A stretch of DNA of 64,000 bases from an uncultured Desulfocapsaceae bacterium (GCA_964583415.1 CAZOWJ010000002.1:35365-99364), one strand, 5' to 3'; positions 1 through 10,388 are shown, counted from the first letter of the stretch. Translations and numbers: made by a program. Notes: generated from the sequence alone by a model not told the origin.

Positions 1-579
1 ATCTATTTTATCACTTCGGCGGCGATGTCCGGGTGTGTGGCAATTATTTTCTTTACCTATCTGGCCTATCGTGCGAACAACTGGAAGATGAGCGACGAGA
101 TGAAGCAGTCCTTGGAGAGTGTTGCCAAGCTCGGGGCGCTGATGATGGCGATCATCCTGTTTTTCACGAGCTGGAAGATGATAACCGGTATAACCGGCAA
201 CCCTCCGGGCAAGTATACGGCCATGATGGCGCTGATCAATGGACCCTATTCATTGAACTTCTGGATCGGAGAGGTTGGTCTTGGCATGATTATCCCGTTC
301 GTCCTGATCCTTGCGGTCCGCGGCCGAAATATGAGGGTTCTGTTTATAGCCTCGCTGGCCGGAATGATTGGTATCTTCTTCATGCGCTATGATCTGGTGA
401 TCATCGGTCAACTGGTTCCGCACTTTCATGGAATGGGGCTGGTAGATTACCCCGAGTTATTTACCTATGTGCCGACCTTTCATGAGTGGATGGTTACCCT
501 TGGGGGCATAGGGCTTTGCGGATTTCTATTCCTGGCCGGCGAGCGGTTGTTCCGTGGCCATCTGGGTGAAGATCACTGA
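1..579 (+). CDS. NrfD/PsrC-type polytopic membrane subunit of an oxidoreductase complex, C-terminal part (5' end outside the window)
   Basis: Frame 1 is open from base 1 (IYFITSAAMSGC...) to the stop at 577-579. It contains several hydrophobic helices. The family assignment rests on topology and composition resemblance only. Confidence 0.5.
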   Translation: MYFITSAAMSGCVAIIFFTYLAYRANNWKMSDEMKQSLESVAKLGALMMAIILFFTSWKMITGITGNPPGKYTAMMALINGPYSLNFWIGEVGLGMIIPFVLILAVRGRNMRVLFIASLAGMIGIFFMRYDLVIIGQLVPHFHGMGLVDYPELFTYVPTFHEWMVTLGGIGLCGFLFLAGERLFRGHLGEDH

Positions 580-706
580 GAGCAGGCAGGATAAAAAGGC
601 TTCGTTCTGAACTGGTCGTACCCCTTTTATCGGGAAGACCAGTTCCATAAATACCTCCTTGTCAATCATAGACACAATGTGTAGGTTGACTCTCGGAGGC
701 AAATAG

Positions 707-1156
707 ATGGCCAGAAAGAAAGTGGAAATACAACCAATTACCGCAGAAACGCCTGTTTATTCGATCGGTGTGGCAGCACAATTGTTAAATGTGCATCCAA
801 GAACACTGCGAATCTATGAGGATGAGGGGTTCGTAAAACCGGCTCGTAATGGTAATCGCCGTATCTTCTCTCAGAATGATTTAACCTGGATTTCCTGTAT
901 CAGGAAGATGATACATGAGGAAGGTATTTCCATACCCGGCATTAAAAAGCTTCTCCGCTATGCTCCATGCTGGGAAATAACAGACTGTCCCCGCGAGGTC
1001 TGTGAATCCTGCACCGCCCAGATCGATGTGGCGGTACCTCGATCCTTGAGAGTTGCTGGTGATAGAGATGCGGAGAAACGGGCGAAAGAAAAAGAAGTAG
1101 CTGCGCGTGAAAAAGATATCCAGGAAAAATCTGATAAAAAGACCTCCTCCAGCTAA
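707..1156 (+). CDS. MerR-family transcriptional regulator with a C-terminal Cys cluster
   Basis: N-terminal MerR HTH (YSIGVAAQLLNVHPRTLRIYEDEGFVKPARNGNRRIFSQNDL). Cys motif CWEITDCPREVCESC. Lys/Glu-rich tail. Confidence 0.8.
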   Translation: MARKKVEIQPITAETPVYSIGVAAQLLNVHPRTLRIYEDEGFVKPARNGNRRIFSQNDLTWISCIRKMIHEEGISIPGIKKLLRYAPCWEITDCPREVCESCTAQIDVAVPRSLRVAGDRDAEKRAKEKEVAAREKDIQEKSDKKTSSS

Positions 1157-1185
1157 TATCGCCCATCAATTGTCGAGGTCGTTTC

Positions 1186-1569
1186 ATGCCTGCTCAACCT
1201 GCTGATCTTGAGAACGTATCCACCTGGGTAAAATATTCGGCCAGATTATGTAAAACCTGTGTGGCCAATTGTTGTCGGTTGCCGGTAGAGACGAGGTTAC
1301 CTGATCTTGTGAGGATCGGAGTCGTTGACGAATTTGAGCTTGATGAGAATGCAAAACAAATTGCCAAACGTCTTAAAAAAGAAGGAGTTGTTGGGCATTT
1401 TTATCAAAAAAAAAAGCTCTTTACACTGACCCGTATGGCAAATGGTGATTGTCTGTTTCTTGACAGTATCAGCAGGAAATGCACGATTTACCAGAAGCGC
1501 CCGGAAACCTGTCGGAACCATCCACATATCGGACCACGTGCAGGATTTTGTGCCTTTTCGAAGATATAA
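1186..1569 (+). CDS. YkgJ-family (CxxCxxCC) zinc/iron-chelating cysteine-cluster protein
   Basis: The motif CKTCVANCC near the N-terminus and a second Cys group (CLFLD...CTIYQKRPETC) are typical of the UPF0153/YkgJ family. The gene starts 30 nt after the MerR gene. Confidence 0.7.
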   Translation: MPAQPADLENVSTWVKYSARLCKTCVANCCRLPVETRLPDLVRIGVVDEFELDENAKQIAKRLKKEGVVGHFYQKKKLFTLTRMANGDCLFLDSISRKCTIYQKRPETCRNHPHIGPRAGFCAFSKI

Positions 1570-1626
1570 TCCTGCTGTCCAGCACCACCAGTTTCAAATA
1601 GTCTGAGACAAGACTGACATTTTTTA

Positions 1627-1856
1627 GGCTCTTCCGGTAAACGAGTACCTCAATGTTGTAATCATCATTCAGTTGTCCATCAAATTGCCTCTGCTCGCCG
1701 CCTGGCATACTTCTTTTTTTGTCCAAAAAGAAGTATGGAGAAAAAGACAACCGATGATGCCGACCCTGCGGGCTCCCCTGTGCTGCTCTGTGGCATCAAA
1801 CGGGGGGCACTCAATATGCGCGGCCCTGCTTCCGGTAGGCGTTTTCCGGAAGAACC
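1627..1856 (+). repeat. Copy A of an unclassified ~230-310 bp element with imperfect terminal inverted repeats (MITE-like, or a structured RNA)
   Basis: About 80% identical to 6232-6540 in the same orientation. Ends are GGCTCTTCCGGTAAACG (1627-1643) and CGTTTTCCGGAAGAACC (1840-1856), which are reverse complements with 2 mismatches. Internal hairpin CATACTTCTTTTT/AAAAAGAAGTATG. Confidence 0.6.
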
Positions 1857-2032
1857 TCTTCTTGTGAAAATCTCCTTTAATCATCTATCTTTTCTTATTA
1901 TATCTAAACGATTAGTGTAAGGTAGCGGTTCAATTTGGATATGAATGAACCTGCTTGTAATCTGTGAAGTATATGAAGGTTGCTTTCTGACAAATTTAAA
2001 ATAACCAAAAATCAGTTCTTGAGGAGATTTTC

Positions 2033-2542
2033 ATGGAAGAGCAATCATATGTTATTACCATGCTGGTGGCAAACAAACCGGGTGTTACTTCCAGGGTTAC
2101 CGGCCTGTTTTCCGGTCGGGGATATAACATGGAAAGCATTTGCGGCGCACCGACTCATGATCCGGAAGTATCTAGAATAACAATAAAAACAAAGGCAACT
2201 TCGGATCAGTTTGAAGAAATTCAGAAGCAGCTCAACCGCCTTATCGATGTGATAAAGTTACGGGATATGACGATTGAAGACAAGGCCGTGAAACGGGAGA
2301 TGGCGCTGGCCAGTGTGGTTGTCACCCCGCAAAACAGGACGGAAGTGATTCAGCTGGTAGATATTTTCAATGCAAAAATTGTCAATGCCGGAGCTGACTC
2401 ATATATAATAGAGATCACCGGAACTGAAGATAAAATTGATGCGCTGGTGAAGCTGCTCAAGCCGCTGGGTATAAAAAAGCTGACCAGGTCAGGTATCCTG
2501 GCTCTTTATCGTGAACTGGATGAGTCTCATCTGGCAGGTTAA
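2033..2542 (+). CDS. ilvN: Acetolactate synthase small (regulatory, ACT-domain) subunit
   Basis: The sequence YVITMLVANKPGVTSRVTGLFSGRGYNMESI..ITIKT is the classic IlvN/IlvH ACT domain. 169 aa. RBS GAGGAG upstream. Confidence 0.85.
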   Translation: MEEQSYVITMLVANKPGVTSRVTGLFSGRGYNMESICGAPTHDPEVSRITIKTKATSDQFEEIQKQLNRLIDVIKLRDMTIEDKAVKREMALASVVVTPQNRTEVIQLVDIFNAKIVNAGADSYIIEITGTEDKIDALVKLLKPLGIKKLTRSGILALYRELDESHLAG

Positions 2543-2566
2543 ATTTCTCCTTACTAATTCAGCTGG

Positions 2567-3742
2567 ATGATAGGATCTATGGATCAGAAAAAATGTGCCG
2601 CCAGGATGGATAAGATTGTACCATTCTATGTCATGGAGCTGTTGGCTCGTGCGAAAGAACTTGAAGCACGCGGTGTGTCGGTTATTCACATGGAAGTCGG
2701 TGAACCCGATTTTACAACAGCCCGACCGGTGATCGAAGCCGGGAAACGTGCCATGGATGCAGGTCATACCGGCTATACTCCGGCCACAGGCATTCCTCAG
2801 CTGAAAGAGGCGATAGCCCAACACTATCGGAACTGGTTCGAGATTGATATTGATCCCCGGCGAATTATTATAACCCCGGGTTCTTCAGGAGCGCTGCAGC
2901 TGATATTGGGCGTGCTGGTCGATCCGGGCAGAGAAGTCTTGATGACAGATCCCGGCTATCCCTGCAATAAAAATTTTGTGGAATTTTTTTCAGGAGTGCC
3001 GAAACCCATCCCGGTTGGCCCCGAAAATGGATATCAGCTGGATAGTGAACAGGTTGAAAACGGGTGGAGCGAATCGACCTGTGCGGCTCTGGTGGCTACC
3101 CCTTCAAACCCCACCGGAACACTGTTGCCGCGCGATGAACTGGGCCGAATTCATAATGTTGTCAGCTCCAAAGGTGGTATGCTTATCGTCGATGAGATCT
3201 ACCAGGGACTTGTTTACGGTACTGACAACTATACTGCCCTGGGTCTTGGCGATGATCTTTTTGTATTGAACAGTTTTTCTAAATATTTTGGTATGACCGG
3301 CTGGCGACTTGGATGGCTGGTTGCCCCGGAAGCCTATCTTGATCATCTTGACTGCCTGGCCCAGAATATTTTTCTGTCCTGCTCTGCCCCTGCGCAGTAC
3401 GCAGCCCTTGATGCTTTTAGCCCACAATGTTATGAAATTTTCAGGAATCGGCGTGATGAGTTTAAAAAGAGAAGGGATTTCCTGCTACCGGCCCTGGAAT
3501 CTCTCGGTTTCGAGATCCCGGTGAAGCCGGAAGGTGCCTTTTATCTCTATACCAACTGTTCCAAGCTGACCGAAGACAGTTTCAAGTTTTGCTATGAACT
3601 GCTGGAAGCGGAAGGTGTGGCAATAACTCCTGGTAAGGACTTTGGTGCCAACAGGCCGGAGGAACATATTCGTTTTGCCTATACGACCAGTATTGAACGC
3701 ATGGCGGAGGCGGTAGAGAGATTGCGGCGCTTTATTGGTTGA
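2567..3742 (+). CDS. Class I/II pyridoxal-phosphate aminotransferase (aspartate/aromatic type)
   Basis: Motifs PFYVMELL, EPDF, TPGSSGAL, NPTG and SFSKYFGMTGWRLGW (PLP-Lys motif). The true start may be ATG 2579 or 2606. Confidence 0.85.
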   Translation: MIGSMDQKKCAARMDKIVPFYVMELLARAKELEARGVSVIHMEVGEPDFTTARPVIEAGKRAMDAGHTGYTPATGIPQLKEAIAQHYRNWFEIDIDPRRIIITPGSSGALQLILGVLVDPGREVLMTDPGYPCNKNFVEFFSGVPKPIPVGPENGYQLDSEQVENGWSESTCAALVATPSNPTGTLLPRDELGRIHNVVSSKGGMLIVDEIYQGLVYGTDNYTALGLGDDLFVLNSFSKYFGMTGWRLGWLVAPEAYLDHLDCLAQNIFLSCSAPAQYAALDAFSPQCYEIFRNRRDEFKKRRDFLLPALESLGFEIPVKPEGAFYLYTNCSKLTEDSFKFCYELLEAEGVAITPGKDFGANRPEEHIRFAYTTSIERMAEAVERLRRFIG

Positions 3743-3920
3743 TTTATCATTTTCTCTGCCTGCTGACTATTGAGGGCAGAGCCAGCAATGGAACAAACCT
3801 TGTATATCTGGTGAGAAGTACTACTTGACTGAAAGCAGAACATATAATAGTTGTCGGCTTTTTGCATGTTGATCCACTCATGAGATACTATTAAATATCA
3901 GATTTTAAAGGAGAATTGTT

Positions 3921-5627
3921 ATGAACAATGCCCAGATTTTGGCAAAAAGTTTCGCTGACCTGGGTGTCAAGCGGGTTTTTGGTTTTTCAGGCGCGACAAT
4001 ATTACCGGTTTTTCACGCCATCGAAGAGTGCGGTATCGATATCGTCGTAGATGCCAATGAGCAGTCTTGTGCCTTTGCAGCAGGTGGCTATTCCCGGGCC
4101 AGTAATGAGGTCGGCATTGCGGTTGTTACCTCAGGTCCTGCAATAACCAATACCCTTACTGCCGTTGCCGATGCAAATGCTGACTCGGTTCCACTGCTGG
4201 TTTTTGCCGGGCAGGTCGCTCAGACCAAGATGGGGACAGATGAATTCCAGACCATTAATGTTGCAAGTATTTTTGCTGATGCTGCCAAAAAAGTGATTCT
4301 GGTTACTGAGTTGCAAAATGTTGAGGAGATTGTTAAGGATGCCTATTTTCTGGCGAAATCTGGAAAACCCGGACCAGTGGTCATTGATTTTCCGTTTGAT
4401 ATCCAGAAATCTGACGGCGAATATAAGTCCATTGAGTCGGCACGATTTCGTTATAAATACGATGAAGAACGACACCTGGGAGATAACCAGTGTCGCCAGT
4501 TCTTTGATCTGCTGCAAAAAGCCAAACGCCCGCTTCTCTATATCGGCGGCGGACTTAACTCTACAGCGGCAAGTGAACGAATACGTGCCTTTAACCGACG
4601 CTATAGAGTTCCTTCCATCTGGAGTTTGATGGGTAAGGGCATATTGAATGAGGCAGGTGACTGGGCTCTCGGCATGCTCGGTATGTTTGGTGTTCCGGCC
4701 GCAAATATGGCTATTCAGCAGACGGACCTGTTTGTTGCTTTTGGAATTCGCTGGGATGATCGTGTGTCTCAAAAAGTTGGTGAATCCGGCCTTGCTGCAG
4801 ACATTGCCTATTTTGACATAAATCCCGAGAAAGTGCAGGAGGTACGTTTTTCACGAAATCCAAAGTTCTCTTTTATCGGCAAAGCGGAAACCGCCCTGGA
4901 TGATCTGCTAAAATATGCAGAGGAGCACGACATCCAATTGGATATCGGTGAATGGCAGGAGCAGACCCGCCGCTTGAAGGAAGACCACCCACTTAACTTT
5001 GACAGAGAGTCAAAAGATATTCAGCAGGCCGAGGTAATGGAGTTGCTTTCAGGCCATATTACAGAGAATACCAAAATCACCACCGGTGTCGGCAACCATC
5101 AGATGTTTGCCGCCCAACACCTGATGACCTTGACACCAAAATCGTTCATAACATCAGGTGGATATGGAACAATGGGCTTTTCCCTACCGACCGCAATCGG
5201 TGCTCAGTATGCCAACCCTGAGGCGACGATAATTTCGATAGATGGTGACGGCAGTATGCTGATGAACCTTGGAGAACTGTTCACTATTGGAAAGTATGAA
5301 TTACCGGTTAAGGTTTTGATGCTGAATAATCATGGTGACTGTATGGTGAGAAACATTCAGGACCTCATGTATGGAGGGAGTTATGTTGGTACAAAGAAAA
5401 TAACCTCTGTCAGCTTTGCCAATGTAGCCGGTGAGCTGGGCTTTCGTTTTGCCCATCGTGTTGAGGATCGCAAGGAGCTGAAAGGGAGTCTGAAAGCGTT
5501 TATTGAAGCAGAAGGCCCGTCATTTCTGGAAGTGGTCACCGACGTTGACGAGATGCTCTATCCTCGAATTCCTGGGGGACTCGGGTATAAAGATATGATT
5601 CTTGGACCGCATATGGAGAAGAAATAG
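3921..5627 (+). CDS. ilvB: Thiamine-diphosphate enzyme of the acetolactate synthase large-subunit family (divergent)
   Basis: Motifs TSGPAITNTLTAVADANADSVPLLVFAGQV, GTDEFQ, GPVVIDFPFD, and a ThDP motif IDGDGSMLMNLGEL..NN. It has ANEQ where canonical ALS has RHEQ. RBS AAGGAG. Confidence 0.7.
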   Translation: MNNAQILAKSFADLGVKRVFGFSGATILPVFHAIEECGIDIVVDANEQSCAFAAGGYSRASNEVGIAVVTSGPAITNTLTAVADANADSVPLLVFAGQVAQTKMGTDEFQTINVASIFADAAKKVILVTELQNVEEIVKDAYFLAKSGKPGPVVIDFPFDIQKSDGEYKSIESARFRYKYDEERHLGDNQCRQFFDLLQKAKRPLLYIGGGLNSTAASERIRAFNRRYRVPSIWSLMGKGILNEAGDWALGMLGMFGVPAANMAIQQTDLFVAFGIRWDDRVSQKVGESGLAADIAYFDINPEKVQEVRFSRNPKFSFIGKAETALDDLLKYAEEHDIQLDIGEWQEQTRRLKEDHPLNFDRESKDIQQAEVMELLSGHITENTKITTGVGNHQMFAAQHLMTLTPKSFITSGGYGTMGFSLPTAIGAQYANPEATIISIDGDGSMLMNLGELFTIGKYELPVKVLMLNNHGDCMVRNIQDLMYGGSYVGTKKITSVSFANVAGELGFRFAHRVEDRKELKGSLKAFIEAEGPSFLEVVTDVDEMLYPRIPGGLGYKDMILGPHMEKK

Positions 5628-5663
5628 CAAAACAATTAAGACATAGTCATAAAAGAATCTATC

Positions 5664-5714
5664 AGCTCAATTGTGGATGTTGCCTTGAATATCCGCAATT
5701 GAGCTTTTTTTTTT
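5664..5714 (+). terminator. Rho-independent terminator after the ALS-like gene
   Basis: AGCTCAATTG ... CAATTGAGCT forms a 10-bp stem followed by T10. Confidence 0.7.
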
Positions 5715-5865
5715 AAGTATAGAAATAGTTTGTTCCCGTTAAACTCCTATCAAAGATGTGCAGGAAACAACGCTTGCTCTATTCTATATTTTTCATGAGA
5801 TTATAAAACTATTTATGGTGTTGAATCTGATGGTTTTTACTGGGTAGCGGGTAAGGGGGCTTTTC

Positions 5866-6207
5866 TCAGAGAAATTCTAATATTTGGTCTAGAGCTGCTT
5901 GTTGATCTCGGGATAATTTTTCACAAAACTTAGCACCTAGAATTACTTCATACATAGAAGAAGTGTCCTGTCCCTCATTAGTAGCTAACCAGATCTTTTC
6001 CAATGGAATATTAAAAATATGTAAACCAGCATTGTTGAAGATGTCGACATTCAAGGTATTTGGAATTTTGCTGCCAGAGGTGCATCCAAAAGCAATGCCC
6101 TCTGAACTTAGATTGAAAATTTGACAAATACTCTCCCGGTTTACGATGAAAGTATCGACAATCTTGTGCCTTAGATGCTTTCTGGATTCACGGTAATCTA
6201 GTGCCAT
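5866..6207 (-). CDS. PilZ-domain (c-di-GMP binding) protein
   Basis: RESRKHLRH (RxxxR-type) followed by NLSSEGIAF (D/NxSxxG) fits PilZ. I chose the start at MALDYRE. The longer ORF to 6288 runs into repeat copy B. Confidence 0.6.
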   Translation of the reverse strand: MALDYRESRKHLRHKIVDTFIVNRESICQIFNLSSEGIAFGCTSGSKIPNTLNVDIFNNAGLHIFNIPLEKIWLATNEGQDTSSMYEVILGAKFCEKLSRDQQAALDQILEFL

Positions 6208-6231
6208 GATGTTTGCAATTTGTAAATATTT

Positions 6232-6540
6232 GGCTATTCCGGTAATCAAATACATCGATAATATAATCATCATTCGGTTGTTCATCAAATTGCCTTTGCT
6301 CGCCGCCTGGTGGCAGGCTTCTTTTGCTTGTCCAAATGAAGTATGGAGAAAAAGACACCCGACGATGCCGTTCCTGCGGGCTCCCCTGCGCTGCCCACCA
6401 GTGGCGGGACACCAAAGACTGGATGATGCTCAGACAGGTTTGGCGCTTTATTACGTCATCAGCTTTGCTGCTCGGCGGCATCAAACGGGGGCAGCCAATA
6501 TGCGCCTTCCTGTTTCAGGTAAGCGTTTTCCAGAAGGGCC
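6232..6540 (+). repeat. Copy B of the TIR-bearing element, with an ~80-nt internal insertion relative to copy A
   Basis: Ends are GGCTATTCCGGTAATC (6232-6247) and GCGTTTTCCAGAAGGGCC (6523-6540). The conserved core is TTGCCT.TGCTCGCCGCCTGG...AAGTATGGAGAAAAAGACA.CCGA.GATGCCG..CCTGCGGGCTCCCCTG.GCTGC...GGCATCAAACGGGGG. The extra sequence lies between the GATGCC and GGCATC arms. Confidence 0.6.
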
Positions 6541-6713
6541 ATAAATTTACTCTATCCTCTCTTACCCCAGCCTCCTCGGTGTTGAACGGTACCCTTCTTC
6601 ATAAAAATGCTTATTCTCTTCATTGTGTACGTGCGGGTCTTCTGGCTACAGCTCCTCGGGAGCGGTTTTCACCAGTTTAAACCGATAATATCCGGATACA
6701 TGAGGAGGTCGAG

Positions 6714-7250
6714 ATGGTCCAGTATCAGATTTCTGTTGAAGAGTTTGGTTCCCTTAGCGCTTATGATGATCGTGAAGAGGCAGTCCAACTTTCCACATTG
6801 TGGCAGAAGGGGACCGCCGTTTTGGTCTTTGTGCGTCATTTTGGCTGAGTAATTTGCCGTCAGCAGGTTGCTGAATTGGCTGGCTACCAGGATGATTTTT
6901 CAAAGCGAGGGGCGCAGCTTGCTGTCGTCGGTAATGGCAGTGTCAAGGATTTGAAAAAATTTAGAAACGTCACAGGTTACCGGGGCATTCTGCTCACCGA
7001 TCCCTCCCGGGACTCCTATAAATTTTTAAAGTTTAAAAGCGGTCTAACCGATATCATCGGGATGAAATCCTTCACTCAGGGTTTTTCGGCTCTAAGATCG
7101 GGTTTCATGCCCGGTTCGCTTCAGGGTCATGCCCTGCAGCTTGGTGGTGCCGTCGTTGTCGTGCCGGAGGGCAACATCACCTACTTCTTCAAAAGCTCTG
7201 CGGCAGGCGATCACCCGCCTGTTGAGACTCTGCTGGCGGCCGTAGGGTAA
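6714..7250 (+). CDS. Peroxiredoxin-like (AhpC/TSA_2, PRXL2-type) thiol oxidoreductase with in-frame UGA, a candidate selenoprotein with a UxxC redox motif
   Basis: ATG 6714 follows RBS GAGGAGG. The frame is open except for TGA at 6846-6848. The translation reads ...GTAVLVFVRHFG-U-VICRQQVAEL..., where the family consensus is FLRHFGCxxCR. The track's ORF 6876-7250 is only the C-terminal part (QLGGAVVVVPEGNITYFFKSSAAGDHPP). Confidence 0.7.
6856..6880 (+). promoter_or_regulatory. Candidate bacterial SECIS hairpin
   Basis: GCC-g-TCAGC AGGTT GCTGA-att-GGC begins 8 nt after the UGA. The apical loop AGGUU contains G-U and lies 17-21 nt downstream of the UGA. Confidence 0.45.
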
Positions 7251-7563
7251 TTATCGTAGTACATTTGAAAACATACAACCAGCGGCATGCCGCCATCAAG
7301 GAAAAGGAACCTGTCAGGACGAGACCTGGCCGTTGCATGGGTTTAGTATACCTCTCGAGCCATACAGAGATATTTTGCCACCGAATCGGAGATGTAGGCA
7401 TCTTCACTTTTGTTTTTTGGAAATTCACTAAACGGATTGCCCACAATTTTAAGCAAGGATCAGTTCCTGTAACGCTTAGGTGGAAGTGTTCTAACATTTC
7501 GTTGTCAGATAAGATAAGAACCTCAGTCCGAAGTTTGTCAGACTGAAGCTTGGTTTCTGCAAA

Positions 7564-7866
7564 TTAAGGTATCCAGAGGAATTGTTCCAGGTCAACCCTG
7601 CCGTCGGTGAGAAAAACAGACTCCTGCTCGAGAAGCTGTTCCTGGGTGAGATGGCTCATTGATTTTCGCGGGGGTATTTCACCTTTAACATTTACCACTC
7701 GATGCCAGGGCAGATTGTACCTATCTGAACTAGAGTGCAGGATTCTTGCGACCTGTCGGGCACCGCAATGGTTTCCTGCTGAGGCAGCGATCAATCCGTA
7801 GGTTGTTACCTTGCCGCACGGTATTCTGCCGATAATCGAAATGACCTGTTGTGTGAATTGCTGCAT
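7564..7866 (-). CDS. atl: Alkyltransferase-like (ATL) protein, MGMT-fold without the acceptor Cys
   Basis: IPCGKVTTYGLIA..GARQVARIL...LPWHRVVN carries the PWHRV motif (Trp replaces the PCHRV Cys), as in E. coli YbaZ/Atl. 100 aa. Confidence 0.75.
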   Translation of the reverse strand: MQQFTQQVISIIGRIPCGKVTTYGLIAASAGNHCGARQVARILHSSSDRYNLPWHRVVNVKGEIPPRKSMSHLTQEQLLEQESVFLTDGRVDLEQFLWIP

Positions 7867-7976
7867 TCCGTATTTGCCCCGGTTTGTTCTTCGAGGGAGA
7901 TCACAGGACCTGATCAGGGAAGACTCTTAAGAAAAAAACAACAAATCTGATATTCTTCCTGCAGGTGGAGGCCACT

Positions 7977-10388
7977 TTATTGAGGGTTAAGCGGGTTTTC
8001 GAGCTTGTATCGTTCTATTTTCCTGCGTAGTGTGTCCTTTGATATGCCGAGTTCCCGGCAGGTAATCATCTTTTTCCATTTGTTGCGCTCAAGAGAACTG
8101 GCTATCGCCTGCTGTTCAATCTGATCGAGGGTCGCCCCAGCTTCCATAGCAGCGAAGTTGGTATGGTCTCTATGAGAATCGGGCAGAAAAGACTCTGGAA
8201 GATGATCTTCTTGAATAAATCCAGCGCTACAGAGGATGAATCCATATTCTATGATGTTTTCAAGTTCTCTGATGTTCCCCGGAAATGAATGAAGCATAAG
8301 CTTTTTTAATACAGCATCGCTGACACCGACAATGTCTTTTTGCTTTTCAGCCCTGAATTTATCAACAAAGTGATCGATCAGCAGTGGTATGTCTTCCTTG
8401 CGGTCGCGCAGCGGGGGCAGCGTGATATCGACAACCTTGAGACGATAATAGAGATCATCCCTGAATAGACCATCGTCGACAAGTTGTTTCAGATCACGAT
8501 TGGTTGCGGCTATGACCCGGACATCAGCCTTGATCGATTCGTTTGAGCCCAGTGGTTCATAAACCCGTTCTTCAAGTACGCGGAGAAGTTTAACTTGAAG
8601 GGAGTGGGGTATGTCTCCGATTTCGTCAAGAAAAATTGTGCCGCCCTCAGCTGCCGCAAAACGGCCCTCCCGGTCTTTTCTGGCATCGGTGAAAGCTCCT
8701 GACCGGTAGCCGAAGAGTTCGGATTCCAGCAACGTTTCAGGAATTGCGCCACAGTTAACGGAGAGAAAGGGCTGGTCTTTACGAGCGGAGGCGCTGACAA
8801 TTGCATCAGCCATAATTCCTTTTCCTGTACCGCTTTCCCCAAGGATAAGTACGGTGCTGTCACTGGTGGCGATATCGGGGAGGATCTGGAAAAATCGCTG
8901 CATGATATTGCTTTTACTTATGATTTCTTTGAAAGTGTAGCGTTGCATCAGTTGTTTACGCAACGATTCCATGACGGTCAGGTCCCGGAATGTTTCAACC
9001 CCGCCAACGACATTGCCAACCACATCAACCAGCGGTGACGCACTGATACTGATCGGTTTGCTTTTGCCTTCTTTGTCTTCGATCATTATCGAGCGGTTGG
9101 CAACTGGTCTTCCGGTATAAAGGCTTTCTGCGATCGCACAGTTTTTGCCGCAGATTGAAGAGTGGAAAACGTCACTGCAGAAACTGCCGATAGCAGCCTC
9201 CCGCTCCCATCCGGTGATGATTTCAGCAGCCATATTAAAAGAGGTAATTTGCCAGTTCCGGTCAACGGTAAACACACCATCGGCGATTGAATCGAGAATC
9301 AATTTGTTCTGCAGTGGCGCTGTATTGTCCCTGAAGGTCTGTACACAGCCGATGGCCCGTTTTTTGTCATCAAGCATTGGAGTGATCGAAACGACAATCG
9401 GGATATTGAAGCCATCCTTATCGGTTACAAAACCTTCCTGATCGATAATGTTGCACGGTTCTCCCGGGTCTGATGCGGTAATCGGGCAAGCAGATACCCC
9501 ATCAGCTGCGAAGAACAGTTCATCGCATGATCGACTGACAACATCATCTTCGAGCCAGCCTGTTATCCGTTCTGCACCTGCATTAAAAGATGTGATAATG
9601 CCCTTGCCATCAAAAGTGACGACCCCGTCGGCAACGGCATTTATTATGATATCACTCCTCACTGATTCACTGATGTCGCGAAAGGTCTCAACACCGCCAA
9701 TTACACGGTTTTCACTGTCAATAAGCGGTGCAGCACTGACGCTGACCGGAAAGGGCAGGCCGTTTTTTCGATAAATATATACATCACGGTCATGATAAAC
9801 ATTGGTGTTGTTCATAATACATGATGAGATTGCACATGATGACAGGCAGATATTTGATTGGAAAATCGTCTTACATGGCTTGCCGAGAACCTCCTCCTGT
9901 TTCCAGCCTGTCATTTTCTCGGCTGCTGAGTTAAAGGAGGTGATTTTCATCTCACCATCGACAGTAAATACTCCTTCCGCAATGGAGTCAAGTGCCAGTG
10001 CCCGCGGGGTTACGACCTCTGAGCGGTCAACCAGGCCGATATAAAATCCAAGGATATTTGCATCTGAATCAGGCAGGACGACAATACGGACTTTCAGGTT
10101 GTCTATTGACTGCTGGCGTGAACCGGCAAGGAAAAACTGCTCCGTTTTTATTGATTCAAAAGGTTTTCTCAGTCTTTCTGTCAAAGGGGCAAAACGGCTG
10201 TCTGCTTCTATCAGCGTTACCAGATGTTTTCCCAGAATATCCTCTTTACGGTGGCCAAGTGTTTGCGCTGCCCTGTTATTACAGGAATTTATTATACAGG
10301 ATCGATCGATGGTGATAAAACCGCTGTCAGGTTCGTGCAACCGTTTGTTGGGGACTGCCATGATGAACTCCACGTAGTGATAACCCAT
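7977..10388 (-). CDS. Sigma-54-dependent transcriptional activator with four N-terminal PAS domains
   Basis: AAA+ core GESGTGKG, a GAFTDA loop variant, DEIGDI, and a C-terminal Fis-type HTH (ITCRELGISKDTLRRKIERY). Three near-repeat PAS units each carry ITSFN.AAE..TGW. Confidence 0.9.
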   Translation of the reverse strand: MGYHYVEFIMAVPNKRLHEPDSGFITIDRSCIINSCNNRAAQTLGHRKEDILGKHLVTLIEADSRFAPLTERLRKPFESIKTEQFFLAGSRQQSIDNLKVRIVVLPDSDANILGFYIGLVDRSEVVTPRALALDSIAEGVFTVDGEMKITSFNSAAEKMTGWKQEEVLGKPCKTIFQSNICLSSCAISSCIMNNTNVYHDRDVYIYRKNGLPFPVSVSAAPLIDSENRVIGGVETFRDISESVRSDIIINAVADGVVTFDGKGIITSFNAGAERITGWLEDDVVSRSCDELFFAADGVSACPITASDPGEPCNIIDQEGFVTDKDGFNIPIVVSITPMLDDKKRAIGCVQTFRDNTAPLQNKLILDSIADGVFTVDRNWQITSFNMAAEIITGWEREAAIGSFCSDVFHSSICGKNCAIAESLYTGRPVANRSIMIEDKEGKSKPISISASPLVDVVGNVVGGVETFRDLTVMESLRKQLMQRYTFKEIISKSNIMQRFFQILPDIATSDSTVLILGESGTGKGIMADAIVSASARKDQPFLSVNCGAIPETLLESELFGYRSGAFTDARKDREGRFAAAEGGTIFLDEIGDIPHSLQVKLLRVLEERVYEPLGSNESIKADVRVIAATNRDLKQLVDDGLFRDDLYYRLKVVDITLPPLRDRKEDIPLLIDHFVDKFRAEKQKDIVGVSDAVLKKLMLHSFPGNIRELENIIEYGFILCSAGFIQEDHLPESFLPDSHRDHTNFAAMEAGATLDQIEQQAIASSLERNKWKKMITCRELGISKDTLRRKIERYKLENPLNPQ

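What the first reader, a model, noticed from the sequence alone, without database searches (positions are those of the whole stretch)
1627..1856. Unclassified ~230-bp element with 17-bp imperfect terminal inverted repeats (copy A)
**Repeat.** The non-coding segment between ykgJ and ilvN recurs at 6232-6540 at ~80% identity.

**Ends.** GGCTCTTCCGGTAAACG and CGTTTTCCGGAAGAACC are inverted copies of each other. The right end also carries a direct copy of the left-end motif, forming the hairpin CTTCCGG-N10-CCGGAAG.

**Interior.** It has a 13-bp hairpin and a long-range pairing CCGATGATGCC...GGCATCAAACGG. No reading frame is conserved between the copies; the frames shift.

**Interpretation.** The terminal inverted repeats, the small size and the absence of an ORF fit a MITE-like non-autonomous element. 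The same features would also fit a structured RNA closed by a terminal helix. I could not match it to any riboswitch or RNA family I know.
Basis: seen in the sequence. Interest (0 to 1): 0.6.

Follow-up and report, generated by a model that had tools for sequence, protein, structure and literature searches.

The report
Small transposon carrying a folded repeat
The 230-base stretch is a worn copy of a small gene-less jumping element (a MITE with ISL3-type ends), and its interior is a remnant of a roughly 180-base folded module, in no RNA catalogue searched, that recurs many times per genome across the whole phylum of sulfate-reducing bacteria and whose job is unknown.

Summary
Window 1627-1856 (copy A) and 6232-6540 (copy B) belong to a repeat family with about 56 loci in this 4-Mb genome.

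**The MITE**
- It has 24-bp imperfect terminal inverted repeats, left GGCTCTTCCGG… and right …CCGGAAGAACC.
- It makes 8-bp A/T-rich target duplications.
- Sister species have precise empty sites.
- It has no ORF.
- The ends match ISL3-family insertion sequences of related genomes, but no ISL3 transposase is present in this genus.
- The full form is about 305 bp. Copy A is a 230-bp internal-deletion derivative. It has no target duplication and sits where sister species carry a 1.26-kb xdhC-like segment.

**The interior**
- The terminal "helix" shows no covariation, so it is a protein-binding site and not an RNA stem.
- The interior is a conserved structured module of about 178 nt: a hairpin, a pseudoknot with triplex-like covariation, and a multi-stem domain.
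- Its covariation is very strong: 40 of 48 pairs show double changes.
- It occurs in many copies in 130 of 401 genomes of the order and in other orders of the phylum. There it often lacks the MITE ends.
- Rfam 15 has no match.
- Its function and its active strand remain open.

The parts
1627..1856 (+). Copy A: 230-bp internal-deletion derivative of the ~305-bp MITE. It has no target-site duplication (flanks ATTTTTTA / TCTTCTTG).
   Evidence: In sister genomes G001 and G002 the same ykgJ-ilvN gap holds a 1.26-1.3 kb segment with a 280-aa xdhC-like gene.
1627..1650 (+). Left terminal inverted repeat GGCTCTTCCGGTAAACGAGTACCT (ISL3-type head GGCTCTTC).
   Evidence: 36 complete copies. (ISL3 element of G187 with IR GGCTCTTCAACAG…). 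PMC6305408 and PMC11448079.
1654..1662 (+). TGTTGTAAT, an extended -10-like motif (TGnTAtAAT in most copies) pointing into the element. Promoter function is inferred only.
   Evidence: Read from the sequences. The two-hexamer scan does not report it.
1705..1805 (+). Remnant of the structured core. It matches model R1 end to end at 72 bits, with the 77 model positions of arm H3 deleted.
1706..1737 (+). Hairpin H1 (13-bp stem CATACTTCTTTTT / AAAAAGAAGTATG, loop TTGTCC).
   Evidence: Compensatory changes within the genus and across families (11 of 12 pairs with double changes).
1738..1749 (+). Purine linker GAGAAAAAGACA. GACA pairs with the H1 loop (pseudoknot). The A/G run mirrors the purine strand of H1 (triplex candidate).
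   Evidence: loop-linker helix 94.8% paired; pair 19-82 CG:51 / UA:23; triple 9/49/59 C-G.G against U-A.A.
1751..1803 (+). It encloses hairpin H2 (CCC-TGC-GGG, 1764-1772) and the deletion junction GCTGCTC (about 1783-1789) where H3 was lost.
   Evidence: ATGCC/GGCAT in this genus against TCCTG/CAGGA in family f6..
1833..1856 (+). Right terminal inverted repeat CGGTAGGCGTTTTCCGGAAGAACC.
   Evidence: ISL3 element of G140 with IR GGTTCATCACGGA….
6232..6540 (+). Copy B: full-length (309 bp) but mutated MITE copy. Flanks AAATATTT / ATAAATTT match 6 of 8. In sister genomes the two flanks lie on different contigs.
6313..6490 (+). Complete structured core of copy B (R1, 146 bits, several broken pairs).

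Best explanation
**What copy A is.** Window 1627-1856 is a decayed, non-autonomous DNA transposon (MITE).
- The intact element is about 305 bp and has no ORF.
- It is bounded by 24-bp imperfect inverted repeats of the ISL3 type.
- It inserts into A/T-rich sites and duplicates 8 bp.
- It must be moved in trans by an ISL3-family DDE transposase that recognises the ends. That step is inferred, because no such gene is in this genome or genus assembly.

**How the shorter forms arose.** They come from deletions between three short direct repeats, TGCTCG(C/G)C, inside the element.
- Forms of 230, 213, 170, 138 and 53 bp exist.
- Copy A lost the 77-nt arm H3 this way.
- The 138-bp form, which lacks the core, kept spreading. 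The core is therefore not needed for transposition.

**History of this site.** Copy A has no target duplication. It occupies a place where congeners carry an xdhC-like gene, so a deletion or a recombination between copies removed that segment.

**The cargo.** The interior of the full element is a structured module of about 178 nt.
- It comprises hairpin H1, a loop-linker pseudoknot with triplex-like covariation, closing helix P2, and hairpins H2 and H3.
- It belongs to a multicopy family found across the phylum that is absent from Rfam.

**Most likely role (inferred).** The module acts as a folded single strand, most likely RNA. It is kept by selection on the fold itself, and ISL3-type shells are only one of its vehicles. 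Which strand is active, and what it does, are not shown.
For: **Mobility**
- 56 loci in the organism's own genome.
- Present in 7 of 9 genomes of the genus and in 0 of 32 other genera.
- TIR 17-mer matches are at chance level elsewhere in the order.
- 8/8 target duplications in 4 of this genome's copies and 7/8 in 4 more. More are seen in relatives.
- Precise empty sites with a single 8-mer were aligned base by base for 4 copies (C111, C2_28444, C53, C9). C44 spans its joint contiguously in several congeners.

**ISL3 link**
- Intact ISL3 elements in related genomes end in GGCTCTTCAACAG… and GGTTCATCACGGA….
- Published ISL3 IRs start GGCTCTTC and make 8-bp repeats (PMC6305408). A published ISL3-type MITE exists (PMC11448079).
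- The ends show no covariation.

**Deletion series**
- Junctions lie in the TGCTCG(C/G)C repeats.

**Core**
- Model R1 finds full-length hits in 130 of 401 genomes of the order (41 of 83 genera) and in 22 genomes of other orders. Hits are usually multicopy.
- 94.4% of cells are paired against 77.6% when shuffled. 40 of 48 pairs show double changes. The covariation score is 0.44 against 0.15 shuffled and at most 0.09 when slid.
- A second, more distant set gives the same result.
- The pseudoknot and triplex are supported.
- At one orthologous insertion in two species, the core is 93-97% identical while the TIR and spacer are 62-65%.
Against: - No ISL3 transposase lies in this genome or its eight congeners, apart from a 33-aa scrap with unrelated ends. 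No autonomous partner turned up in a metagenome scan either.
- Copy A itself has neither a target duplication nor a clean empty site.
- The strand of the core is unsettled.
  - G.U exceeds A.C about 2:1 on the window + strand.
  - The pyrimidine-type triplex and the GNA triloops fit the opposite strand.
- No expression data could be obtained.
- The A5 and A6 alignments were fitted to the model structure, which inflates pair counts somewhat.
- Gene conversion among copies could mimic in-place selection.
Confidence: 0.85

Rival explanations
1. The structured core is not an RNA. It is a single-stranded-DNA substrate of a different mobility system, like REPIN/RAYT or IS200/IS605 PATE elements. On this view it spreads by itself, and it merely landed in, or was captured by, an ISL3-type MITE in this genus.
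For: - In family f17 and in other orders the core stands alone with sharp ends and no TIR-like flanks.
- In families f6 and f7 the cores form inverted doublets, as REPINs do.
- On the minus strand, three hairpin tips are GAA or GCA triloops closed by C-G. These are known as very stable DNA mini-hairpins (my own knowledge). The loops were read.
- G.U and A.C departures both occur.
Against: - No HUH/Y1 transposase association was found.
- Neighbours of the cores are unrelated housekeeping genes.
- A loop-linker pseudoknot with a register-keeping third strand is a typical RNA device.
- One orthologous copy is conserved in place at the level of coding sequence. Selection for mobility alone does not predict that.
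Confidence: 0.25
2. The whole 230-bp element is a structured RNA gene whose ends form a closing terminal helix.
For: - The ends are complementary at 15 of 17 positions (20 of 24 over the longer repeat).
- The interior does contain covarying helices.
Against: - In 36 complete copies, positions 3, 12 and 18 of the 'helix' are fixed mismatches.
- Positions 6, 13 and 15 vary on the right side only, with no compensation on the left. This drops pairing at positions 6 and 13 to 31-33%.
- The ends are flanked by 8-bp duplications and precise empty sites.
- The ends match ISL3 IS ends.
Confidence: 0.03
3. Copies A and B are a simple local duplication with no mobility.
For: They lie 4.4 kb apart in the same orientation, on either side of the ilvN-aminotransferase-ilvB block.
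Against: - 56 loci lie on many contigs.
- Copies occur in 6 other species at non-orthologous sites.
- Target duplications and empty sites are present.
Confidence: 0.01
4. The core is an integron attC-like recombination site. The same-orientation arrays between toxin-antitoxin genes seen in congeners would then be cassette arrays.
For: - G004:C9 238.5-246.5 kb holds five complete cores plus one partial, all in one orientation, separated by small toxin-antitoxin-type genes.
- G003 has similar clusters.
Against: - Integron integrase (TIGR02249 above its cut-off) is absent from G000, G003 and G007, which all have cores. Where present it lies on other contigs.
- No R'/R'' core sites were seen.
- The fold is multi-branched with a pseudoknot. 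It is not a single imperfect hairpin.
- Most copies are dispersed between housekeeping genes.
Confidence: 0.03

Closest known systems
ISL3-family-derived MITEs (for example the Microcystis aeruginosa MITE with GGCTCTTCG ends, PMC11448079) and ISL3 insertion sequences such as ISArsp7 (PMC6305408)
   Same: - The inverted repeats start GGCTCTTC or GGTTC and are about 24 bp long.
- Target duplication is 8 bp, in A/T-rich sites.
- The element is small, has no ORF and is multicopy.
- The ends resemble intact ISL3 elements found in related genomes.
   Different: - No cognate transposase exists in this genome or genus.
- The interior is not just leftover IS ends. It is a strongly covarying structured module that also exists without the TIRs in other families.
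- The intact ISL3 elements seen (1.3-1.4 kb) have no room for that module.
Extended TwoAYGGAY elements of Pseudomonadota (Rfam RF01731 core; bioRxiv 10.64898/2026.09.22.753630)
   Same: - Multicopy structured non-coding units of about 200 nt.
- A basal stem, several hairpins and a terminal pseudoknot.
- Strong copy-number variation.
- Frequent inverted doublets. Read on the minus strand, the f6/f7 doublets are divergent, as 68% of TwoAYGGAY doublets are.
- Mobile-like expansion and unknown function.
   Different: - No match to RF01731 at E <= 10, 5 or 1.
- No AYGGAY loops on either strand.
- A different phylum.
- In this genus the unit is carried inside a TIR/TSD transposon.
REP/BIME-REPIN, ERIC, Correia, RUP and BOX interspersed repeats
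   Same: - Short, intergenic, multicopy and hairpin-rich.
- Modular forms, with internal-deletion variants like the modules of BOX.
- Insertion between unrelated genes.
   Different: - The fold here is a 48-pair multi-branched structure with a pseudoknot, conserved over a whole phylum. Several pairs show all four Watson-Crick pair types. This is far more RNA-like than those repeats.
- Mobility in this genus is by TIRs and an 8-bp TSD, not by a RAYT.
H-type pseudoknots with a major-groove U.A-U triplex (telomerase RNA, SAM-II and preQ1-II riboswitches, ENE-type 3'-end stabilisers). This comparison rests on my own knowledge.
   Same: On the minus strand the order is S2a (UGYC), a U-rich loop, S1 5' arm, S2b (GRCA), S1 3' arm. 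The U/C run tracks the A/G run of the stem in parallel register.
   Different: - The triplex is inferred from register-keeping covariation between a few sequence types only.
- No ligand, poly(A) partner or function is known.
- The strand is not established.

Membership tests
Bacterial MITE (non-autonomous TIR transposon) | Small size with no coding capacity | tested here: met
   Forms run from 53 to 311 bp. Indels between copies break all frames. No conserved ORF.
Bacterial MITE (non-autonomous TIR transposon) | Terminal inverted repeats | tested here: met
   A 24-bp imperfect IR is conserved in 36 complete copies.
Bacterial MITE (non-autonomous TIR transposon) | Target-site duplication of fixed length | tested here: met
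   The duplication is 8 bp. It is 8/8 at C2_28444, C39, C4_12641 and C53, and 7/8 at four more. It is 8/8 at L032, L034 and L049 in relatives. Copy A itself has none.
Bacterial MITE (non-autonomous TIR transposon) | Presence/absence polymorphism with precise empty sites | tested here: met
   Joined-flank queries align without a break in congeners for C111, C53, C2_28444, C44 and C9. The 8-mer is present once.
Bacterial MITE (non-autonomous TIR transposon) | Cognate autonomous IS with the same ends in the same genome | tested here: not met
   No PF01610 hit in G000. No multicopy repeat over 400 bp with these ends. None among 29 metagenome loci. This is common for MITEs, and the assembly is a 195-contig MAG.
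ISL3-family-derived element | IRs of 15-39 bp beginning GGCTCTT… or close variants | tested here: met
   Left end GGCTCTTCCGG…; right end GGTTC(T/A)TCCGGA…. ISL3 elements in G187 and G140 end GGCTCTTCAACAG… and GGTTCATCACGGA…. ISArsp7 has GGCTCTTCGCGG… (PMC6305408).
ISL3-family-derived element | 8-bp direct repeats | tested here: met
   The literature value of 8 bp is given in PMC6305408 and PMC11448079.
ISL3-family-derived element | Mobilisation by a DDE_Tnp_ISL3 transposase | not testable with these tools
   This needs a transposition assay. Transposase genes exist in other genera of the order but not in this genus.
TwoAYGGAY RNA (Rfam RF01731) or any Rfam 15 family | Match to the family covariance model | tested here: not met
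   No relevant hit at E <= 1 (window 1-9000), at E <= 10 (best long copies) or at E <= 5 (copies from other families).
TwoAYGGAY RNA (Rfam RF01731) or any Rfam 15 family | Two hairpins with AYGGAY loops | tested here: not met
   Loops read CUUGYC, UGC/UUC and CUCAGACAG on the + strand, and GRCAAG and GCA/GAA on the - strand.
Integron attC site | Linked integron integrase and cassette array | tested here: not met
   TIGR02249 above its cut-off is found only in 5 of 14 genomes, and mostly on other contigs. In G082 one IntI lies about 6.5 kb from a core on the same contig. It is absent from G000, G003 and G007, which all have cores.
IS200/IS605 PATE or REPIN-RAYT element | Association with a Y1 (HUH) transposase; no TIR and no TSD | not tested
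   Genome searches were exhausted before a Y1/RAYT search. In this genus the element has TIRs and a TSD, which does not fit. Stand-alone cores in other families leave the question open.

The most novel reading that the evidence does not exclude
The ~178-nt core may be a new class of self-maintaining structured RNA, with a triple-helix pseudoknot at the 3' end of the minus-strand transcript. On this reading it is the real evolving unit across the phylum (GTDB Desulfobacterota inferred from MAG titles). It would spread by borrowing different DNA vehicles: ISL3-type MITE shells in this genus, inverted doublets in families f6 and f7, and naked copies elsewhere. Alternatively it takes part in its own mobility, as a guide-like or bridge-like RNA. 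In either case it is kept in place by selection because it does something for the cell or for itself.
Probability: 0.15. Interest if true: 0.85.

Novelty: new variant of a known kind. Interest (0 to 1): 0.6.

Why it matters
On its own, a genus-specific ISL3-type MITE is routine. It explains local genome rearrangements, such as the loss of an xdhC-like gene at copy A and a synteny break at copy B, and it is a cause of contig breaks in these MAGs.

The cargo is the interesting part.
- It is a fold of about 180 nt with 48 base pairs plus a pseudoknot.
- Its covariation is comparable to that of established RNA families.
- It is absent from Rfam.

It joins a growing set of "structured interspersed repeats", such as the extended TwoAYGGAY elements, whose biology is unsolved. 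In this genus the module can be separated cleanly from its vehicle:
- the ends are defined;
- natural deletion series exist;
- core-less copies still transpose.

This makes it directly testable whether the fold serves the host, the element, or neither.

Tried and rejected
- **Rfam scans** of the window, of the best long copies and of copies from other families found nothing relevant.
- **Parent IS in the organism's own genome.** There is no ISL3 transposase and no long multicopy repeat. TIR-like 17-mers outside known copies were solo or chance sites.
- **Parent IS in the genus.** Only a 33-aa ISL3 scrap with unrelated ends was found.
- **Parent IS in the order by TIR pattern.** Only chance-level singletons without a partner turned up.
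- **Parent IS in metagenomes.** All 29 loci are MITE copies of the same or near-identical strains, or chance hits in a high-GC organism.
- **Viral contigs** gave 0 hits. **Plasmids** gave no meaningful hit.
- **Integron attC idea.** Rejected, because IntI is unlinked or absent.
- **Candidate autonomous element.** Inward-facing cores in G082 flank peptidase M32 and TauE genes, not a transposase.
- **Truncated core hit in G140.** It was cut by a contig end.
- **Two-hexamer promoter and terminator scans.** No two-hexamer promoter was found. Two weak terminator-like hairpins lie on the element's minus strand in the C44 copy, within shuffle expectation.
- **Orientation relative to neighbouring genes.** No significant bias.
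- **Wobble-pair counts** did not settle the strand.

Full report
**1. The observation**

The segment between the YkgJ-type gene (window 1186-1569) and ilvN (2033-2542) contains the described element at 1627-1856.
- It aligns with 6232-6540 at 78% column identity, apart from one block of about 77 nt present only in copy B.
- The ends GGCTCTTCCGGTAAACG and CGTTTTCCGGAAGAACC are inverted copies of each other.
- The 13-bp hairpin lies at 1706-1737. The pairing CCGATGATGCC…GGCATCAAACGG (1751-1761 with 1792-1803) is present.

**2. It is a multicopy mobile element**

The window is G000:C2:35365-99364, part of a 4.03-Mb MAG in 195 contigs. MAG titles of close relatives place it in Desulfocapsaceae/Desulfobulbaceae.
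- blastn finds 56 loci of the family in this genome. Several lie at contig ends.
- The family occurs in 7 of 9 genomes of the genus, with 2 to at least 26 hits each. It occurs in none of 32 other genera sampled.
- The 17-nt end motif is at chance level in 200 genomes of the order.
- Complete copies are flanked by 8-bp A/T-rich direct repeats.
  - 8/8: C2_28444 (AAAAAAGA), C39 (AAACAAAA), C4_12641 (AAAATGTA) and C53 (TCATTTTT).
  - 7/8: four more.
  - Further perfect cases occur in other species.
- Queries made of joined flanks align without interruption in sister genomes for copies C111, C53, C2_28444, C44 and C9. Base-level comparison of four of these (C111, C2_28444, C53, C9) shows the 8-mer present once at the empty site, for example CCTAAAAAAGAACT in G001.

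**3. The ends are transposase sites of the ISL3 type, not an RNA helix**

In 36 complete copies the inverted repeat is 24 nt long.
- Positions 3, 12 and 18 are fixed mismatches.
- Positions 6, 13 and 15 vary on the right end only, with no compensating change on the left.

The literature gives GGCTCTTC… 24-bp IRs and 8-bp repeats for ISL3 elements (ISArsp7, PMC6305408). It also describes a Microcystis MITE with GGCTCTTCG ends assigned to ISL3 transposases (PMC11448079).

I found intact ISL3 transposase genes in other genera of the order. Their elements end in GGCTCTTCAACAGAATTTG… (G187, 1419 bp) and GGTTCATCACGGA… (G140, 1301 bp). These are the two head types of the MITE's left and right ends.

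No ISL3 transposase is present in this genome or its eight congeners. No autonomous partner was found in metagenomes, viral contigs or plasmids. Mobilisation in trans is therefore inferred.

**4. Anatomy and history of copy A**

The full-length form is 305-311 bp (C44, C78, copy B, and most copies in G001 and G006).

Shorter forms have junctions inside three short direct repeats TGCTCG(C/G)C at about positions 66, 163 and 245. This gives 230-, 213-, 170- and 138-bp forms, plus a 53-bp form that is little more than two ends.
- Copy A is the 230-bp form.
- The 138-bp form has the same junction in several species, and it has target duplications and empty sites. It therefore kept transposing after losing the interior.

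Copy A has no target duplication (ATTTTTTA / TCTTCTTG).
- In G001 and G002 the same gap holds 1.26-1.3 kb with a 280-aa xdhC-like gene.
- Other congeners carry decaying remnants of that gene.
- The right-flank homology starts exactly at the element's end.
- Copy A thus marks a deletion or an inter-copy recombination.

The two flanks of copy B lie on different contigs in G001 and G007, so copy B marks a synteny break.

**5. The interior is a conserved structured module**

Among 22 long copies from four species, the central 140 columns are 92-97% conserved. The ends are 54-91% conserved.

Within the genus, hairpin H1 shows compensatory changes, C-G to G-C and A-T to C-G. H3 does too.

The centre alone finds multicopy relatives at 73-81% identity in 54 of 200 other genomes of the order.

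A 14-sequence seed gave 17 of 47 pairs with double changes and the covariance model R1, with 178 positions and 48 pairs.
- R1 finds full-length hits in 130 of 401 genomes of the order: 41 of 83 genera in 12 families.
- R1 also finds hits in 22 genomes of other orders of the phylum.

Covariation counts are as follows.

| Alignment | Cells paired | Shuffled | Pairs with double changes | Covariation score | Shuffled | Slid |
|---|---|---|---|---|---|---|
| 79 distinct hits (A5) | 94.4% | 77.6% | 40 of 48 | 0.443 | 0.150 (0 of 500 shuffles reach it) | at most 0.087 |
| 24 distinct sequences from other families and orders (A6) | 93.7% | 69.7% | 40 of 48 | 0.55 | 0.16 | at most 0.102 |

Several pairs show all four Watson-Crick types. 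These alignments are fitted to the model, which inflates the numbers somewhat, but the effect is far too large to be an artefact.

The "long-range pairing" is the closing helix P2, which reads ATGCC/GGCAT here and TCCTG/CAGGA in family f6.

In the window, copy B scores 146 bits (6313-6490). Copy A scores 72 bits (1705-1805), with H3 deleted. Rfam 15 has no match.

**6. Pseudoknot, triplex and the strand question**

A mutual-information scan found a covarying contact outside the nested structure.
- The H1 loop UGYC pairs with GRCA in the linker.
- Pair 19-82 is C-G in 51 sequences and U-A in 23.
- The 4-bp helix is 94.8% paired.

The purine run of the linker mirrors the purine strand of H1 in register.
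- The triple at columns 9/49/59 is C-G.G in about 50 sequences and U-A.A in about 16.
- A second sequence type moves the C one step along the stem, and the G one step along the linker.
- Types with an uninterrupted T5 stem have an uninterrupted A5 linker.

Read on the minus strand, this is an H-type pseudoknot whose U/C-rich loop can lay U.A-U and C+.G-C triples in the major groove of the A/G-rich stem, at the 3' end of the unit.

The minus strand also turns three hairpin tips into GAA or GCA triloops closed by C-G.

Against this, G.U exceeds A.C on the plus strand: 209 against 82 cells, with 72 of the 209 from one doubtful pair, and 47 against 24 in the second set. The left module of the MITE also carries a TGnTAtAAT motif that points into the core on the plus strand.

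The strand is therefore unresolved.

**7. Context of the core elsewhere**

- In families f6 and f7 the cores occur as inverted doublets. They are preceded by GGTTCATCCGG…, a TIR-like head.
- In family f17 and in other orders the cores stand alone, with sharp ends and unrelated flanks.
- Their neighbours are unrelated housekeeping genes.
- Congeners G004 and G003 have same-orientation arrays between toxin-antitoxin-type genes.
- Integron integrases are unlinked or absent.
- One insertion is orthologous in two species (L151 and L153). Its core windows are 93-97% identical. The TIR and spacer are 62-65% identical, and the coding flanks 88-100%. This points to selection in place or to gene conversion.
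- In this genome the element shows no significant orientation bias relative to its neighbours.

**8. Verdict**

The finding is a real, decayed copy of an ISL3-type MITE, a new member of a known kind. Its cargo is a widespread, uncatalogued structured module of unknown function.

The closest published analogue of the module is the extended TwoAYGGAY element (bioRxiv 10.64898/2026.09.22.753630). The module fails that family's model and lacks its loop motif.

Shown:
- multicopy distribution;
- TIRs, 8-bp TSDs and empty sites;
- the deletion series;
- resemblance to ISL3 ends;
- the covarying fold, the pseudoknot pair and the phylum-wide distribution.

Inferred:
- the mobilising enzyme;
- the triplex;
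- whether the fold acts as RNA or as single-stranded DNA;
- the active strand;
- any function.

Noticed in passing
window 6714-7250 (+): The reading frame of a peroxiredoxin-like protein is interrupted by an in-frame TGA near 6847 (…VFVRHFG-TGA-VICRQQV…). The TGA sits where a redox cysteine of a CxxC-type motif would be expected, so this is probably a selenocysteine codon and not a pseudogene.
   Followed up: no
G000 C24:3736-3900, C99:~1-80, C1:62300-62385, C64:~3810-3850 (outside the window); L186 (G004:C9) throughout: There is a second dispersed repeat family, with motifs AAGTGAGGGGACTGATTTT(T)ATTTTTCTGC…GGGGGCAGATTGATTTTTCA. It abuts or truncates several MITE copies. A related-looking ACGGGGTCAGGT…ACAACATTT motif accompanies every core in the G004 array.
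   Followed up: no
G000 C2:29069-30300 and C2:34713-35944 (the latter covers window 1-580): A 1.23-kb segmental duplication at 98% identity includes the membrane-protein gene at the start of the window. Each copy is preceded, 420-460 bp upstream, by a MITE copy (C2:28444-28613 and C2:34169-34294).
   Followed up: no
L186 (G004:C9:238500-246500); L187, L188 (G003:C2 ~2.20 and ~2.32 Mb): There are clusters of 3-6 structured cores in one orientation, 0.7-2.5 kb apart. They are separated by small toxin-antitoxin-type genes (HigA/HigB-like, BrnT-like, RelE/ParE-like, HipA-like). No integron integrase lies on the same contig.
   Followed up: partly
window 1570-2032 compared with L082 (G001:C7) and L083 (G002:C4): Sister species carry a 280-aa xdhC-like gene, convergent with ykgJ, between ykgJ and ilvN. 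G007, G006 and G005 keep only remnants of it. In this genome it is gone entirely.
   Followed up: partly
L195-L196 (G082:C16:112500-137500): Two inward-facing cores lie 22 kb apart and bracket a region that includes an integron integrase gene (G082:C16:120410-121342). This may be coincidence or a large composite element.
   Followed up: no
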